DNA of 64,000 nt, taken from IMG/VR virus record IMGVR_UViG_3300048691_000224; one strand, given 5' to 3'. How positions within the stretch are numbered: the first letter of the stretch is position 1; every line of letters begins with the position of its first letter. The position numbers and the translations under genes are program-made. Source of the stretch: a virus (Duplodnaviria; Caudoviricetes). The notes beneath the pieces were generated by a model that worked only from the letters and a program-made list of their open reading frames with translations, did no database searches and had not been told where the DNA came from. Positions 16,181 through 55,187 of this stretch are shown here, one piece after another.

Positions 16181-16505
16181 CTAGTTGTTGGGTGATAAGG
16201 TAACCAGCCTCAGCGTGTTGTCGGTGTTTAGGCGACTAACGCAAATAATTCATCGTTGTGAGTTATTATTTGTTTGCCAGATTTAACGACGTTCGTGCGT
16301 GTCGGATTGTAATTAAATTCTATTCTCTGTCAGTCGATTCTAGATCGCCCCCATCAAAAACACTATACTCGCACTGGACATAATGTTTTTGGTGGAGGCG
16401 TCGGGATTTGCACCCGATTGTTGCCAGTTTTACCAATTTAGGTTTCCAGAGTTTCTAGCCCGAGGCGGATTAGAGTACCGCACCCTTCGGAAGCTCATCA
16501 CAATC
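16181..16505 (-). ncRNA. ssrA: Circularly permuted (two-piece) tmRNA
   Basis: T-arm plus CGCCTCC-A-CCA (ends 16390) lies upstream of the 5' strand GGGGGCGATCTAGAATCGAC (starts 16352). The strands form a 7-bp acceptor stem with G3.U70. Tag frame ends ...HNDELFALVA* at 16228. Confidence 0.9.
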
Positions 16506-20697: not shown

Positions 20698-22101
20698 TTA
20701 CTTATTGGTCAAATATGATTTGTATATGATGCCGATCACACCCGAAGTGGTTTGTTGGCTGCTAACTTTAGCGATCATTGATTGAATATCTGTTATTATT
20801 TCAGCCGACATCGTTAGTGTCCGATTAATAATTTCAGGTGAATATTTGAATTCTCGTGAATCCGCGAGTTGCAATCTAAGAGTTGCTACGTGCTGCTTGA
20901 AGTTAGTGTTCAGTACCTTTGCTGATCGTAGAGCGTGCTCGAGGGCGGACACAACATCACTGCGGACTGAACTTACGTCGAGGGATGAGAAGTCAGGTGT
21001 AGTTGCCAGAAATTTTCTAATCATTGTTGGCCGAGCAAGTTGATCATACTCAAATATCTCCGATAGAGTTTTCAACAAGTCAGTATAAACTGATCCTGTT
21101 CTCGTATCGATCAATCGGAGTTCATCCGCCACCTGCTTTGGCATTGAGCTCTTTAGTTGCCCACGAATTGCAAAGTTGAAATTATTGAATGCTGTAAACA
21201 CATCCTTATCAACAATTTTAACTTGTGTATTAGTTGCAGGGTCAAACAATACTACCCCCTCGACACCCGGATCGATGCTTTTATCAACACCACCAACATC
21301 TCTCAGGGATGGAGTGAGGGTTCTGACAAATTTAATCAATAGTTCTTGTTTGATTGGGAGCTTGAAGTTGTGTAGGATTACATCACCTATCTGCTTCTTC
21401 AATGCAACAATTTCAGGTGCCCTCGATTGTAGAGCTATCAATTCTCTGATTGTTGGTGAACTCCCTGATGCTAAATCAACCGTACCGTCGAGGTATTGAT
21501 TCAGTTGAGAGATTTGCTCACTAAAGTCTACTGCAGATAATTGTTGAGTATCTAATTGTTGAGGAGTGACGAACCTCCAGGTAACTGGCTCATTTGAGTT
21601 AATTACTGTCTCTCCGTCTGTCGAAGTGTATAATTTAGTATCAATTGTCACTGTCGGAAACTTAATTCCTTTGAGAGAGGCAATGATGGAGTCAGAGTCA
21701 GGTGATAATGCCCGCAAAAATGCGATACACGACGATCCATATATAATTGCATTTGGTTGTGCGCCAAACAGTACTTCAACTTCAACTAAGGTATTTGCTG
21801 GTAATACAGGCTTCAGTAGTGGAGCGATTTGGCGCAGGGCTTGGTGTGCAGACTTAAACCCAGTCATTGCTGCGGAGTCTCCCCACTCTTCGGGGTCATA
21901 TCGCCTCGTCGCTGACCCTTTCTGTTGCCGAGAACAGAAAAGCTCCCCACCATCATCAATTCCAAATGTGAGTGCAGCACCATCTAGCTTTTCAGTAGCT
22001 ATAAATTTGGATAATCTGGTGATGACACCAATAAAAGAATCTAAATCGAGATCTTCTATGTGAGTGATTCCTTCTGAAAGATATTGCTTGAAAGATCGCA
22101 T
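20698..22101 (-). CDS. Ligase/nucleotidyltransferase-fold protein with a head-protein-like N-terminus
   Basis: ATEKLDG (motif I lysine), VEGVVL (motif IV), VKIVDK (motif V); begins MRSFKQYLSEG. Confidence 0.55.
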   Translation of the reverse strand: MRSFKQYLSEGITHIEDLDLDSFIGVITRLSKFIATEKLDGAALTFGIDDGGELFCSRQQKGSATRRYDPEEWGDSAAMTGFKSAHQALRQIAPLLKPVLPANTLVEVEVLFGAQPNAIIYGSSCIAFLRALSPDSDSIIASLKGIKFPTVTIDTKLYTSTDGETVINSNEPVTWRFVTPQQLDTQQLSAVDFSEQISQLNQYLDGTVDLASGSSPTIRELIALQSRAPEIVALKKQIGDVILHNFKLPIKQELLIKFVRTLTPSLRDVGGVDKSIDPGVEGVVLFDPATNTQVKIVDKDVFTAFNNFNFAIRGQLKSSMPKQVADELRLIDTRTGSVYTDLLKTLSEIFEYDQLARPTMIRKFLATTPDFSSLDVSSVRSDVVSALEHALRSAKVLNTNFKQHVATLRLQLADSREFKYSPEIINRTLTMSAEIITDIQSMIAKVSSQQTTSGVIGIIYKSYLTNK

Positions 22102-25313: not shown

Positions 25314-26456
25314 TTATTCGACTGAATCCTCAATAGTCTCAGTTGCCCATGCTGGTTTATATTCAGAATACCGCTTGATTAAAAATTGTGGATAGTCCAC
25401 AATCCGTCCCAAGTAGGTATTCATCATCAATTGCATCAGGTCAGGATGTTCGCACTGTGCCTTGATTGCATAGTCCTTGCGCTCTAGTAGCTTGTTTTCA
25501 GCATAAAATTTACTGACTTGAGACTCAATCGAATTAAGAATTGGGAACACGTGATTCTCCATTGCTGTGATTCGATCTTGGACGTACTTGTCATCACCGA
25601 AGATACTGCGAATATCGTCCGTCCCCTGGACCGCGGCTAGTTCAAATAGTGCGCGGGGGCTGTTGACATTATCCTTCTGCTTATGCAACAGAACGTATTT
25701 GTCAGCCTTACACTTCACTAGGTACCGTACCCCTGTCGTAGGGTTGTGCATCTCGACTACACAACCTTCACCTTCTTGCAATTGCTTGCAATACTCATTG
25801 AATTCTGATGGGATCATTTCTGGAAACCCGTGAGAGACTAGGTACTCACTCGGGACAGTAACACCAGTAACTTGTGCTATTTGTGCTGGGAGAATATACT
25901 CCCCTGTTGCCAAACTCCGGATGCCCAAAATTCGCAATTGTGGGATTTGATATCCCACAACGATTCGATTGTGTGGTGCGGTGTACTCCAGACTGACTGT
26001 GTAACCAGATAACTCCAGCATTTTTAGCGCGATCCGCAGTTCTTCGTGGTATGAGATGTAATATGCTGCGTCGCCTGACTGATCAGAATACACCGAACCC
26101 TTAGACTTAACATGTAGATTGCCGTTGACCAACATTGTGCTAATTAGTGATCCATCTAGTTTTTCCATTGCACTCGAAATAACACACTCATCGTGGTCCA
26201 CCCCACCTTCGGCAAAATTAAAGAATTTTTGAGGTGGGAGAGAAATCAACTGAGGGTTGCCTGTGATGTCATATGTCGTGCCACGACAGTCAAGTGCACC
26301 TGGCTTCTGGAATTCTGTCCACGACGCGAGGCGGTAGTTGAAAATTCGAAGGACTCTCCCCAGATATTCAAAATCTTTGAAGTAAAAAGTATCACCTTCA
26401 CTGCATAGAGCCATAAGGTCTGTATACAATGTATTAGCATTGAACTTAGTTGACAT
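25314..26456 (-). CDS. rnlA: RNA ligase 1 (T4 RnlA/gp63 family)
   Basis: PPQKFFN, MEKLDGSLI, VKSKGS, EGCVV and LVKCK motifs. Confidence 0.9.
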   Translation of the reverse strand: MSTKFNANTLYTDLMALCSEGDTFYFKDFEYLGRVLRIFNYRLASWTEFQKPGALDCRGTTYDITGNPQLISLPPQKFFNFAEGGVDHDECVISSAMEKLDGSLISTMLVNGNLHVKSKGSVYSDQSGDAAYYISYHEELRIALKMLELSGYTVSLEYTAPHNRIVVGYQIPQLRILGIRSLATGEYILPAQIAQVTGVTVPSEYLVSHGFPEMIPSEFNEYCKQLQEGEGCVVEMHNPTTGVRYLVKCKADKYVLLHKQKDNVNSPRALFELAAVQGTDDIRSIFGDDKYVQDRITAMENHVFPILNSIESQVSKFYAENKLLERKDYAIKAQCEHPDLMQLMMNTYLGRIVDYPQFLIKRYSEYKPAWATETIEDSVE

Positions 26457-48731: not shown

Positions 48732-48806
48732 TGGTGCTCCCACAAGGACTTGAACCCTGCTTTCCGGATTACAAAACCGGTACATCGCCGTCTATGTTTT
48801 GAGAGC
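48732..48806 (-). tRNA. tRNA-Thr(TGT)
   Basis: Cloverleaf, TGT anticodon, CCA. Confidence 0.85.
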
Positions 48807-49444: not shown

Positions 49445-49533
49445 TGGACCAAGCACTCAGATTTGAACTGAGGTGTGTATGTGATACATGCGGATTTGCA
49501 ATCCGCCCCCTTCGACCACTTGGGTATGCTTGG
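49445..49533 (-). tRNA. tRNA-Cys(GCA) with a long variable arm
   Basis: GCGGA-TTGCAAA-TCCGC; 17-nt variable region with TGTAT/ATACA stem; U73; CCA. Confidence 0.85.
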
Positions 49534-50727: not shown

Positions 50728-50934
50728 GAGATCATTTCTGTTTACTTCTACACCACGTCTGATGTACTAATTTTGGTTTTAGTTGCTACTGAGCTATATG
50801 CCAATAATATTTGTGAGGCTGTGCGAGCTCATCTGCACACTTGGGCTTTTTGTCTTCTCGTTCCAGCTGGCTCTTACGACTGTAGCGTCACCTCAAAAAA
50901 TGGTGCTCCCTCACTCAATCAGGAATACACAAAG

Positions 50935-51020
50935 TGCTGGACACAGGATTCGAACCTGCGATGGATAATAAAATCAATAGCTTACAAAACTATTCCCGTC
51001 AACCGCTTGGGTAATCCAGC
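50935..51020 (-). tRNA. tRNA with TGT (Thr) anticodon on a class II (Leu/Tyr-like) body
   Basis: D-loop CCCAAGCGGTTGACGGG; ATAGT-TTTGTAA-GCTAT; 17-nt variable region; A73; no encoded CCA. Confidence 0.75.
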
Positions 51021-51066: not shown

Positions 51067-51137
51067 AGCGGAATGTCAGAATCGAACTGACAACCACAGT
51101 TTGGAAAACTGTCGTTTTACCATTAAACTAATCCCGC
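51067..51137 (-). tRNA. tRNA-Gly(TCC), second copy, no encoded CCA
   Basis: GCGGGAT/ATTCCGC acceptor, TCC anticodon, U73. Confidence 0.85.
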
Positions 51138-52218: not shown

Positions 52219-52233
52219 TGTGTATCCTAATTT

Positions 52234-52307
52234 TACAGCTACAGAGAATTGAACTCTGATTACTGGTGATGAGAACCCCAGCGTCCTAGACGTTAGACGA
52301 TAGCTGC
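52234..52307 (-). tRNA. tRNA-Glu(CTC)-like, slightly atypical, no encoded CCA
   Basis: GCAGCTA/TAGCTGT acceptor; CTGGGG-TTCTCAT-CACCAG; CAGAG-TTCAATT-CTCTG. Confidence 0.7.
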
Positions 52308-52344
52308 ATTTATTTTTCGGCTCTTGCTAACCGATCGATTCATC

Positions 52345-52699: not shown

Positions 52700-53530
52700 A
52701 ACTAATTAGATCTAAGTGTGCTCCTGTTACAAACTGCCGGTGAGGCCTGGCGTAGTGCACACTTAGATCTAATTACTCAGGGTTGAGAGACACAAATTGT
52801 ATTAACGGGAGGAATGAGGCATCAGCGACCACTCATATTACCAACTCACAAATTAATACAAAGCATTTCACGCCCTGAGTAATAAGATATTATTTCACAC
52901 CTATTTGTTAATGATCATTTTTGCTACAGAATTCGATGATTCTGAGTGCACATATAATTGAAAAGAGCCTTGTAAATTACTTGGCTCTTTTTGTGTTTGT
53001 TATAATTCTTATTATTCTGAGGGATCAAATTCTTTTTCGATCTCCATAATTTCGATTATCACATACACAGGGAGCTTTACAATCCGCCGGCGTCCAATAA
53101 TTGGCTTCCGTCTGGCAATGTTCACTTCCTGTATTATACGAATTCAAAATCATTTCTTGATCTCTTTATTTGCTATCTGTCTATTATATATGCTTTATTT
53201 ATATAAGTCAACAATTATTTTACCAAAATTTTAAAAATATTTTCAAATCAAAGTTTAGAAAGGACTTGAACCTCCCATCCAATAGGATAGCAATTGAACG
53301 CCGCCCCGACTGCTCTACCAATGAGCTATAAAATTTGATTTGAAAATATTTTAGATTTTCTAACTACTTAGACCCCATTATCAACATTTATTTGAACAGG
53401 TCAACAATTATTTTTCAACTTGAAAAATAAATTTAGAAAGAGCGGGTAAAGGGAGATCGAACCCTAACAACTTAGTGGATTTCTCGATAGGTAATATTAC
53501 CTCCTATCGCGGCACAGATCCTCAATACTA
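52700..53530 (-). ncRNA. ORF-free island of structured ncRNA candidates with internal early promoters
   Basis: Two 19-bp perfect inverted repeats, tRNA-derived D/T arms, promoters at about 53180-53210 and 53370-53403. Confidence 0.55.
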
Positions 53531-53531
53531 A

Positions 53532-55187
53532 TTAGGAGTCTACTAATCTATGCCCGCACGAAGTTGGCTGCCTTGCAACCACTCTTTCTGAATTTATTTT
53601 ATACAAGAATTGCACTAAAAACTGAACACAGTACTCGGTTGGATTTGCACCAACTACCACCTGATGGTTACAGGTCGTACTATTCTCATGGGCTTTATAG
53701 CTAATATTTCCCACTACCTTTGTACTAGCTCTACTATTTAAGCTATCGTTACACTGTTCAGATTTTAATGTAATCCTCACTTGATATCCATTATCAATGA
53801 AGTTTCAAACAAGTCAACAATTATTTAATTTACTTTCTGGCCGGTGCTGGAATTGATGCACAAAAATCGGCTGGTATTAGAGTCTCCAATTTTACTAGCC
53901 ACAAGCAATGTGGTGCTTGCATTTTTGCAAGCAAGTTCTGATGCATAATTACCTAACACAGCTGGTGCAGCTAATGGATTGTGGAATGATGCTGCAATGT
54001 AAATTAGTGTGTATACGGTCGCCATTTTGAATTTCCTTTATTAAACTTGCTCTTAGGGTCTATTATACCCCAAATCGGAGTAAGGTCAACAAGTAATTCA
54101 AGTTTTTATGGTTTTAATCAAAAAAAGTTCAGATATCGTGGTAATCCCAGTTTTCAATACATGAACCATATGATTCGATAAAATTATTGTAGGCAGCTTC
54201 CGTCGAGGCTTCTACCAACGATTCTAAATCTCCAACCACTTTACCGTACACTAGGTGTGATGCTTCAAAGTGGTTCACCCACTTGTAATAGTCTTCATGA
54301 ACTTCCGCGACCACTGTCCATCCAGACACTTCATCATATCCAATACAAACTGGATTAAGCGTAATTGCTTCTGTTCTTCTTTGCACACACGAGTTAACTT
54401 TAAATGGTAACTCGTCAACGGTAGGGACAATTGGTCTGTTCAAAAACTCGGTTAATGCTTGATTATTCATCATTGATTCCTTCGGAGTACAATCTATCTG
54501 CCTCATCGCACGGGTCTTCGTCGAGTGGATTAGTATCAATCATGATGTGCCCGATGTGAATTTTACCATCTTCAGTTGCACAGCACGGGTCACCAATGAA
54601 GTGTTGGCCAGCGAGTAGCGTTACTTTATTTTTCATGTCAAACTTTCAGTTACAAAACCGTTGATGCGTCGATACAATTGTTGTCTGATTCCAAAAACCA
54701 GTGTGCGTCAATTAGTACCCCATTCACAGGAACTCGACTAAGTTTTGTTGAGCTATACAGATTGATATTAATATAATGTCTCCAGAAGTCACCACAATCG
54801 AGGTATGCTTGTGGTGACCTTGTTATCTCACAAGCATACCGATATGCTGCACCGACAATAGGTGGTGAACGGTGTACAATATTCCGATACTTGCGCAGTA
54901 CGTCTGGGTGAGCAGTGTATTTAAACATTATTTTGATCTACTCACATCCAATGGTCATCTACCGACCCAAACGCCAGACTGTCGGTTTGCTGAAGTTCGA
55001 CGAGTGCACACTTAACCACATATCGACCGTGTTGTTCGTCTTGTGTTAGATCAGGGTCTTTCAAGAAATATTCTACGGCGGCACCTTCTATGAAATCCTG
55101 CAACTCTCCATCCAGAACATATCGTTCCTGTAGATGTGGCATCACATATTTCATCGATGTTACTAATAGTTTCTTTGAATATTTCAT
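53532..55187 (-). other. Small hypothetical ORFs (53825-54025, 54129-54539, 54650-54928, 54942-55187; 53532-53780 doubtful)
   Basis: ORF track; early promoters. Confidence 0.5.

What the first reader, a model, noticed from the sequence alone, without database searches (positions are those of the whole stretch)
53234..53352. tRNA elbow mounted on a 19-bp perfect AT-rich stem with its own promoter
Seen: canonical D-arm (TAGCTCATTGGTAGAGC) and T-arm (GAGG-TTCAAGT-CCTT), an enlarged irregular anticodon arm, and the acceptor extended by a 19-bp inverted repeat with no CCA. A TTGACC/GATAAT promoter lies directly upstream. Inference: a non-chargeable tRNA mimic whose ends are sealed against processing, a plausible early decoy.
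Basis: partly seen in the sequence, partly recalled or inferred. Interest (0 to 1): 0.62.

Follow-up and report, generated by a model that had tools for sequence, protein, structure and literature searches.

The report
Stem-clamped tRNA-shaped RNA gene in phage
An uncultured giant T4-like phage carries a small RNA gene with its own promoter that keeps a tRNA's corner (D and T arms) but has no usable anticodon arm and has both ends zipped into a 24-pair helix; it is a new example of the unexplained tRNA-like RNAs of phages T4 and T5, and the long helix is a general wrapping for small RNAs in this phage lineage, not a special seal.

Summary
On the minus strand, 53352-53234 has 24-nt complementary ends (19 perfect pairs, one mismatch, 4 pairs), a textbook D arm and T arm, a 23-nt irregular middle arm with a 6-nt loop, no CCA, and a TTGACC-16-GATAAT promoter.

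It is not a decoding tRNA. Rfam tRNA scores 20.2 bits against a threshold of 29, and ARAGORN makes no call. 18 of the window's 21 tRNAs encode CCA and have no such helix.

A close variant in one IMG/VR contig has seven point differences. None breaks a pair, and a 1-nt deletion rules out coding. There is no covariation for E3 itself; the sister element E2 shows one compensatory change in its helix.

The "sealed against processing" reading is not supported. In a more distant relative, 24 such helices (0.75 expected) wrap ordinary tRNAs (Trp, Cys, Pro, Met, Asn), tRNA-like RNAs and unrelated hairpin RNAs.

The helix is therefore more likely a lineage-wide processing or stability stem. The decoy role is untested.

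The closest known things are T5 RNA1 and T4 rnaC. It is not YrlA.

The scan already reported the sister elements E1 and E2 on this DNA. This is a new variant of a known kind, of moderate interest.

The parts
53377..53412 (-). Promoter: upstream motif AATAATTGTTGAC, -35 TTGACC (53404-53399), 16-nt spacer, -10 GATAAT (53382-53377)
   Evidence: Consensus scan gives 10 of 12 matches. The motif recurs 19 times in the window against 3.8 expected. Both hexamers are kept in the variant L082.
53353..53376 (-). Inferred 5' leader (GGGGUCUAAGUAGUUAGAAAAUCU) between the promoter and the helix
   Evidence: 22 of 23 bases are identical in L082. The same leader start also precedes E1 in L082. The transcription start is inferred, not measured.
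53329..53352 (-). 5' strand of the 24-level terminal helix ('clamp')
   Evidence: Inverted repeat I1; MFE fold; 97.7% of cells paired in the two variants.
53312..53326 (-). D arm GCUC-AUUGGUA-GAGC, preceded by U8-A9 equivalents at 53328-53327
   Evidence: Aligned to D-arm positions of Rfam tRNA with high posterior probability. Identical in L082.
53285..53307 (-). Middle ('anticodon-position') arm: GGG/UCC, 2x1 internal loop, GGCG/UGCU, 6-nt loop UUCAAU
   Evidence: Folds of both variants. The only change within its pairs is G-U to A-U.
53276..53284 (-). Variable region UAUUGGAUG; carries 3 of the 7 point differences from L082, including a 1-nt deletion
53259..53275 (-). T arm GGAGG-UUCAAGU-CCUUU
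   Evidence: Aligned to T-arm positions of Rfam tRNA. Identical in L082.
53234..53257 (-). 3' strand of the terminal helix; no CCA follows; runs into a U-rich stretch
   Evidence: In L082 an 11-nt deletion shortens the helix by about 5 pairs.
53183..53211 (-). Next promoter (TTGACT-17-TATAAT), starting 23 nt after the helix; it drives a 42-codon ORF (53153-53025)
   Evidence: (11 of 12 matches). It shows that E3 is a unit of its own.
53424..53600 (-). Sister element E2 (22-nt arms, T arm, long middle part)
   Evidence: Its helix shows a compensatory A-U to U-A change between the window and L082.
53617..53766 (-). Sister element E1 (clamped, D and T arms, own promoter at 53817-53790)

Best explanation
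E3 is a real gene for a small, non-decoding RNA derived from a tRNA.

Host RNA polymerase transcribes it from one of the phage's recurrent sigma-70-type promoters (inferred). The RNA folds into a tRNA-like L: an intact D-loop/T-loop elbow, stacked on a T stem and a 24-level helix made by its own 5' and 3' flanks. A longer irregular arm with a 6-nt loop takes the place of the anticodon arm (shown by sequence and folding).

The long terminal helix is not specific to this mimic. It is the standard wrapping of small RNA genes in this phage lineage. It most likely acts as a precursor processing stem, like the RNase III stems that flank rRNAs, and/or as an end-protecting helix that releases and stabilises the cargo (inferred).

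The mature product would then work by presenting a tRNA elbow without an anticodon. It would occupy or recruit a factor that recognises tRNA shape rather than the anticodon (inferred; target unknown).
For: - All parts are present, and the fold is far better than shuffles: z -5.29.
- The promoter belongs to a repeated class: 19 copies against 3.8 expected. A second promoter follows immediately, so E3 is a separate unit.
- It is not a tRNA by Rfam or ARAGORN.
- It is non-coding: a 1-nt deletion in the variant L082 falls inside both small overlapping ORFs.
- The seven point differences from L082 leave 98.7% of cells paired. They fall in the variable region, the junction, the mismatch level, or change G-U to A-U.
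- The E1-E3 block is 94-97% identical between the two phages, against 80-84% for neighbouring coding DNA.
- The sister element E2 shows a compensatory change in its helix.
- The helix is generic. G001 has 24 such helices against 0.75 expected. They surround canonical tRNAs, tRNA-like RNAs and unrelated hairpins, some with their own promoters.
- Annotated precedents exist: T5 RNA1 (D arm, T arm, terminal stem, expanded middle) and T4 rnaC (T arm plus terminal stem), both stable RNAs of unknown function (PMC3014915).
Against: - E3 proper was found in only two closely related contigs. There is no compensatory change in E3 itself.
- The 109 nt downstream of E3 are 100% identical between the two phages. 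High identity may therefore reflect a recent exchange rather than constraint.
- There is no transcript, end-mapping or binding data.
- The G001 elements are analogues by architecture; homology to E3 is weak (25-39 bits).
- No RNase III gene was found in the phage fragments, so processing would depend on the host enzyme.
- The helix is almost pure A-U.
Confidence: 0.5

Rival explanations
1. The helix seals both ends so that the RNA escapes tRNA processing and charging, and it serves early in infection as a decoy for host defences that cleave tRNA.
For: - There is no CCA, while 18 of 21 tRNAs of the window encode it.
- The promoter is of the early type.
- The elbow is intact.
- RNA ligase genes lie nearby: 55255-55896 matches PF09414 at 3.8e-23, and 25314-26456 is Rnl1-like.
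Against: - Helices of the same kind flank normal tRNAs in G001 that must be processed.
- The middle-arm loop has 6 nt and differs from the loops of the G001 analogues (UUCAAU, UCGCCAG, UUAAUU). It does not copy any anticodon loop that known anticodon nucleases read.
- The RNA ligase homologues are near tRNAs in only 17 of 80 phage loci.
Confidence: 0.15
2. A decaying tRNA gene, or a recombination by-product of a fast-changing tRNA array, with no function of its own. The promoter and helix are inherited parts of the array's repeat structure.
For: - E3 proper occurs in only one phage species.
- It has no covariation.
- The region is mosaic between the window and L082.
- The middle arm contains a T-loop-like GUUCAAUU. 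That suggests a fusion of tRNA pieces (inference).
Against: - The damage is confined to the anticodon position. The D arm, the T arm, every tertiary-contact base and 23 helix pairs are intact in both variants.
- The unit keeps its own strong promoter.
- Analogues with the same plan exist in a distant relative.
Confidence: 0.2
3. A Y-RNA-like partner of a Ro60-type protein. The long end-to-end stem would be the protein-binding module and the tRNA-like domain the second module, with the same topology as Deinococcus Yrn1.
For: Yrn1 has a long 5'/3' stem at the acceptor position, D-like and T arms, and an 'anticodon' arm with a 6-nt loop (PMC4201824). There is a weak Rfam YrlA match of 16.8 bits.
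Against: - The YrlA score is far below the threshold of 69.
- There is no GNCGAAN0-1G motif in the 5' strand.
- No TROVE domain was found in the window ORFs tested, nor in G001 or G002.
Confidence: 0.06
4. A working tRNA after removal of a short insert. At lowered thresholds with introns allowed, ARAGORN proposes tRNA-Ser(GCU) with a 12-nt insert at position 31/32.
For.
Against: - The call appears only when the threshold is lowered, and the proposed anticodon stem has a mismatch and a wobble.
- A Ser anticodon sits on a class I body.
- The acceptor is all A-U with a mismatch, and there is no CCA.
- The two bulges lie at the same end of the 4-bp helix, so there is no bulge-helix-bulge motif (reading).
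- No splicing route for such inserts is known in bacteria (established knowledge).
Confidence: 0.04
5. The inverted repeat acts at the DNA level (ends of a miniature mobile element, a cruciform) or only as a transcription terminator, and the tRNA-like cargo is incidental.
For: - Arms in G001 share outer sequences (CATAT...ATATG) and repeated units.
- U-rich runs follow several 3' arms.
Against: - The cargo includes functional-looking tRNAs.
- No terminator was called at E3.
- No target-site duplications were seen.
- All elements lie on the transcribed strand of the array.
Confidence: 0.05

Closest known systems
Phage T5 RNA1 ('tRNA-like stable RNA with unknown functions', AY543070 30501-30644)
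   Same: It is encoded inside the phage tRNA cluster. It has a D-arm-like hairpin, a canonical T arm (GAAGG-UUCAACU-CCUUC), paired 5' and 3' ends, and an expanded region at the anticodon position. Its function is unknown.
   Different: Its terminal stem is short (about 6-7 pairs) and its middle insert is much larger. No dedicated promoter is annotated. No sequence homology to E3 was detected.
Phage T4 rnaC / rnaD (species 1 and 2 RNAs)
   Same: They are small stable RNAs in the tRNA gene cluster of a T4-type phage. rnaC ends in a canonical T arm and an acceptor-like terminal helix. Their roles are unknown (PMC3014915).
   Different: They have no canonical D arm and no long terminal helix, and they are co-transcribed with tRNAs. 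The E3 model does not match them.
Bacterial Y RNAs: Deinococcus Yrn1 and YrlA (Rfam RF02553)
   Same: They combine a long stem made by the two RNA ends with a tRNA-like domain. Yrn1 has the same arm order and a 6-nt loop on its 'anticodon' arm (PMC4201824).
   Different: E3 has no Ro-binding motif, no Ro60 gene nearby, and a YrlA score of 16.8 against 69. YrlA has T before D, with the long stem at the anticodon position.
RNase III processing stems flanking 16S and 23S rRNA
   Same: Leader and trailer pair into a helix of about 20 pairs or more that encloses the mature RNA (PMC6582327 abstract, established knowledge). Here the same design encloses tRNAs and small RNAs.
   Different: This is an analogy of design only. 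Cleavage was not tested, and the cargo is 70-180 nt.

Membership tests
Decoding tRNA | Reaches the Rfam RF00005 gathering score and is called by ARAGORN | tested here: not met
   20.2 bits against 29. ARAGORN makes no call at default settings or with introns allowed.
Decoding tRNA | 5-bp anticodon stem with a 7-nt loop | tested here: not met
   The arm is 23 nt: 3 bp, a 2x1 internal loop, 4 bp and a 6-nt loop.
Decoding tRNA | D arm, T arm and the bases that form the elbow | tested here: met
   U8, A14, G18, G19, A21, G53, U54, U55, C56, A58 and C61 equivalents are all present.
Decoding tRNA | Free 3' end with CCA, as encoded in this phage's tRNAs | tested here: not met
   18 of 21 window tRNAs encode CCA. 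In E3 the position after the seventh helix level is paired and is followed by GAUUUG.
YrlA / Y RNA | Rfam RF02553 gathering score | tested here: not met
   16.8 bits against 69, and the match is partial.
YrlA / Y RNA | GNCGAAN0-1G motif near the 5' end (PMC4201824) | tested here: not met
   The 5' strand is AAAAUAUUUUCAAAUCAAAUUUUA; the motif definition comes.
YrlA / Y RNA | Ro60 (TROVE) gene within about 4 kb on the same strand | tested here: not met
   No TROVE hit in 56 window ORFs or in contigs G001 and G002. The rest of the genome was not available.
Phage stable tRNA-like RNAs (T5 RNA1, T4 rnaC) | Lies in the phage tRNA cluster, with a T arm and paired ends but no normal anticodon arm | tested here: met
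Phage stable tRNA-like RNAs (T5 RNA1, T4 rnaC) | Sequence or structure homology to the T4 RNAs | tested here: not met
   Model R1 finds nothing at rnaC or rnaD. T5 was compared by folding only.
Phage stable tRNA-like RNAs (T5 RNA1, T4 rnaC) | Accumulates as a stable RNA in infected cells | not testable with these tools
   The phage is uncultured and no transcript data are held.
RNase III processing stem | Leader/trailer duplex of about two helical turns enclosing the product | tested here: met
   24 levels in E3. There are 12-14 extra pairs on G001 tRNAs, giving about 20 pairs together with the acceptor stem.
RNase III processing stem | Cleavage by RNase III | not testable with these tools
   Needs an enzyme assay or end mapping.

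The most novel reading that the evidence does not exclude
E1-E3 and their G001 counterparts would be a new class of phage RNA genes. Each is promoter-driven and helix-clamped, and makes an L-shaped RNA with an intact tRNA elbow and a variable middle arm. They would act as sponges or adaptors for host factors that recognise tRNA shape (RNase P, tRNA-sensing defence or repair regulators), and so be RNA-based counter-defence or takeover factors.
Probability: 0.12. Interest if true: 0.8.

Novelty: new variant of a known kind. Interest (0 to 1): 0.45.

Why it matters
Phage-encoded tRNA-like stable RNAs have been known in T4 and T5 for about fifty years, and their function is still unknown.

This locus shows the same idea in giant freshwater phages in a cleaner form: three consecutive self-contained genes, each with a long end-to-end helix. 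The relative G001 shows that this helix is a general format that also wraps true tRNAs.

If the helix is a processing stem, it points to an RNase III-type maturation route for phage tRNA arrays that has not been described. If the cargo is a tRNA-shape mimic with a host target, it would add an RNA class to phage takeover or counter-defence tools.

Either way the elements are small, easy to synthesise, and testable in laboratory strains.

Tried and rejected
**Searches for homologues of E3**
- GenBank phages by blastn: none.
- IMG/VR exact and gapped patterns: only L082. A 15-mer pattern gave only chance matches.
- Metagenome contigs, by pattern and by the neighbouring protein: nothing, or a 2.6-kb contig.
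- GTDB genome contigs: none.
- Model R1 over 81 RNA-ligase loci gave only four weak hits (21-30 bits, E 0.0004-0.09) that were not followed up. Over two other clamp-bearing contigs and a provirus it gave nothing.
- rIIA and the 205-aa neighbour gave one relative each.
- No whole genome is held for the window.

**Ideas rejected**
- Y RNA membership.
- A bulge-helix-bulge intron: both bulges lie at the same end of the 4-bp helix.
- A link to the RNA ligase gene: only 17 of 80 homologous ligase loci have tRNAs nearby.
- An antisense target of the middle-arm loop in the window: none found.
- A phage RNase III: none in G001 or G002.
- A four-sequence alignment with the G001 analogues was not structurally consistent, so it was not used for covariation.

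Full report
**Setting**

The window is part of a large T4-like phage. It carries rIIA/rIIB, an Rnl1-type RNA ligase and a DnaB-type helicase. It has no close relative in GenBank phages, and no whole genome is held for it. It holds 21 tRNA genes called by ARAGORN, all on the minus strand, and a permuted tmRNA. The finding lies in a 1.4-kb stretch (52700-54130) with no sizeable ORF.

**Observation**

Read on the minus strand, 53352-53234 contains the following parts:
- A 5' strand of 24 nt, then UA.
- A D arm: GCUC-AUUGGUA-GAGC.
- A 4-nt linker (AGUC).
- A 23-nt middle arm: GGG, then GC, then GGCG-UUCAAU-UGCU, then A, then UCC.
- A 9-nt variable region.
- A T arm: GGAGG-UUCAAGU-CCUUU.
- One C, then a 3' strand complementary to the 5' strand.

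The helix has 19 perfect pairs, a U.C mismatch at the fifth level from the junction, and 4 more pairs. The fold energy is -37.9 kcal/mol against -21.1 for shuffles, z -5.29.

The promoter TTGACC-16-GATAAT lies at 53404-53377. It sits inside a motif, AATAATTGTTGAC, that occurs 19 times in the window against 3.8 expected. Another promoter of the same class starts 23 nt after the helix and drives a 42-codon ORF. E3 is therefore a unit of its own.

**Not a decoding tRNA**

- Rfam tRNA scores 20.2 bits against a gathering score of 29. It aligns only the acceptor-like levels and the D and T arms, and skips 27 nt at the anticodon position.
- ARAGORN makes no call at default settings or with introns allowed. 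Only at lowered thresholds does it propose a Ser(GCU) tRNA with a 12-nt insert and an imperfect anticodon stem.
- 18 of the window's 21 tRNAs encode CCA and have almost no leader/trailer pairing. E3 has no CCA.
- The seven 'acceptor' levels are all A-U, with one mismatch.

**Conservation**

One IMG/VR contig (L082, in record G002) carries a close variant. The E1-E3 block is 94-97% identical between the two phages. Neighbouring coding DNA is 80-84% identical, and the gene order around the block differs.

Within E3 there are seven point differences and an 11-nt deletion at the outer end of the 3' strand. None breaks a pair of the helix, D, middle or T arms: 98.7% of cells are paired. The differences are:
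- One change converts G-U to A-U in the middle arm.
- Three lie in the variable region. One of them is a 1-nt deletion that would frameshift both small overlapping ORFs, so the stretch is non-coding.
- One lies at the junction.
- Two convert the U.C mismatch into G.A, so the mismatch stays a mismatch.

This is consistent with selection on the fold, but it is weak evidence. With two sequences there is no compensatory change in E3. The 109 nt downstream are 100% identical, so a recent exchange could also explain the similarity. The sister element E2 does show a compensatory A-U to U-A change, and a C.A to C-G repair, in its own helix.

**The helix is a lineage-wide format**

A covariance model of E3 (R1) found three hits in a more distant relative, G001. 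This contig shares a 205-aa protein with the window at 60% identity. No tRNA is called in the stretch with the hits.

Reading that stretch shows an array of small RNAs, each with a long leader/trailer helix. Several have their own TTGAC promoter and a conserved leader. In 23 kb of G001 there are 24 such helices against 0.75 in shuffles. Their cargo is of three kinds:
- Ordinary tRNAs scoring 47-51 bits (Trp, Cys, Pro, Met, Asn), whose acceptor stems are extended by 8-14 pairs. In the folded examples (Trp, Cys, Pro, Asn) the pairing runs straight on from the acceptor, with no CCA.
- tRNA-like RNAs with a T arm and a short middle arm. L200 2787-2922 has a 7-nt loop (UCGCCAG). L200 1505-1610 has a 6-nt loop (UUAAUU).
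- Hairpin RNAs with no tRNA features.

In the window itself, an odd class II-like tRNA-Thr(UGU) at 50934-51020 has 14 extra pairs and no CCA.

A helix that wraps true tRNAs cannot be a device to keep the cargo from being processed. It looks like the processing stems that flank rRNAs, or like the end-to-end closing helices of stable bacterial RNAs. I found no RNase III gene in the phage fragments, so the host enzyme would have to act. This step is inferred.

**What E3 does**

The shown facts are: an intact tRNA elbow, a long coaxial helix, a non-anticodon middle arm whose loop differs between analogues, and a dedicated promoter of the sigma-70 type.

My best reading is a stable tRNA-shape mimic that engages a factor reading tRNA shape rather than the anticodon. 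The target is unknown. A decoy for anticodon nucleases is unlikely, because nothing resembles an anticodon loop.

The other readings I could not exclude are a decaying tRNA remnant, a Y-RNA-like RNA, an insert-bearing tRNA, and a DNA-level element. They are listed as rivals with their evidence.

**Comparison with known RNAs**

- T5 RNA1 is annotated as a 'tRNA-like stable RNA with unknown functions'. It folds with a D-like hairpin, a canonical T arm, paired ends and an expanded middle.
- T4 rnaC ends in a canonical T arm with an acceptor-like terminal helix. The roles of rnaC and rnaD are unknown (PMC3014915).
- R1 does not match the T4 RNAs. E3 is therefore the same kind of thing, not a detectable homologue.
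- Deinococcus Yrn1 shares the topology (PMC4201824). The defining features of YrlA and Y RNAs are not met: the Ro-binding motif, a nearby Ro60 gene and the Rfam score.

From memory, not checked here: T4 species 1 RNA was reported in the 1970s to be cut by E. coli RNase III.

**Verdict**

E3 is a new variant of the known kind 'phage tRNA-like stable RNA'. The added point is that its long helix belongs to a lineage-wide format for small RNA genes.

The scan had already followed up the sister elements E1 and E2 on this same DNA with similar conclusions.

Noticed in passing
L201, L200, L202 (IMGVR_UViG_3300046313_000683, 45000-68000): An array of 24 leader/trailer helices (0.75 expected). They wrap canonical tRNAs, tRNA-like RNAs and unrelated hairpin RNAs. 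Units at L200 2922-2396 each have a TTGAC promoter and a conserved leader hairpin.
   Followed up: partly
window 50934-51020 (-): tRNA-Thr(UGU) on a class II-like body. It has 14 extra leader/trailer pairs and no CCA. A normal tRNA-Thr(UGU) with CCA lies at 48732-48806.
   Followed up: partly
window 16228-16448 (-): A permuted (two-piece type) tmRNA gene in a phage, Rfam RF04321 at 73 bits. It may hint at the host group.
   Followed up: no
window 49445-49533 (-): tRNA-Cys(GCA) of 89 nt with a long variable arm and an encoded CCA. A clamped 85-nt tRNA-Cys lies in G001 (L202 3137-3221).
   Followed up: no
window 52767-52888 and 52701-52777 (-): Another 17-pair leader/trailer helix with 88-nt non-tRNA cargo, overlapping a 23-pair hairpin, just upstream of tRNA-Pro.
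   Followed up: no
L081 5528-5613 (+): A tRNA-Asp(GUC)-like gene with normal acceptor, D and anticodon arms, but with a T loop GGCAGAG instead of UUCGAAU. ARAGORN does not call it.
   Followed up: no
window 51067-51137 and 52233-52308 (-): tRNA-Gly(UCC) and tRNA-Glu(CUC) are the only unclamped tRNAs of the window without an encoded CCA.
   Followed up: no
window 20698-22101 (-): A 467-aa ORF with only a weak N-terminal RNA_ligase (PF09414) match (E 0.0028) and no PHROG family. It may be a third RNA-ligase-like gene in the window.
   Followed up: no
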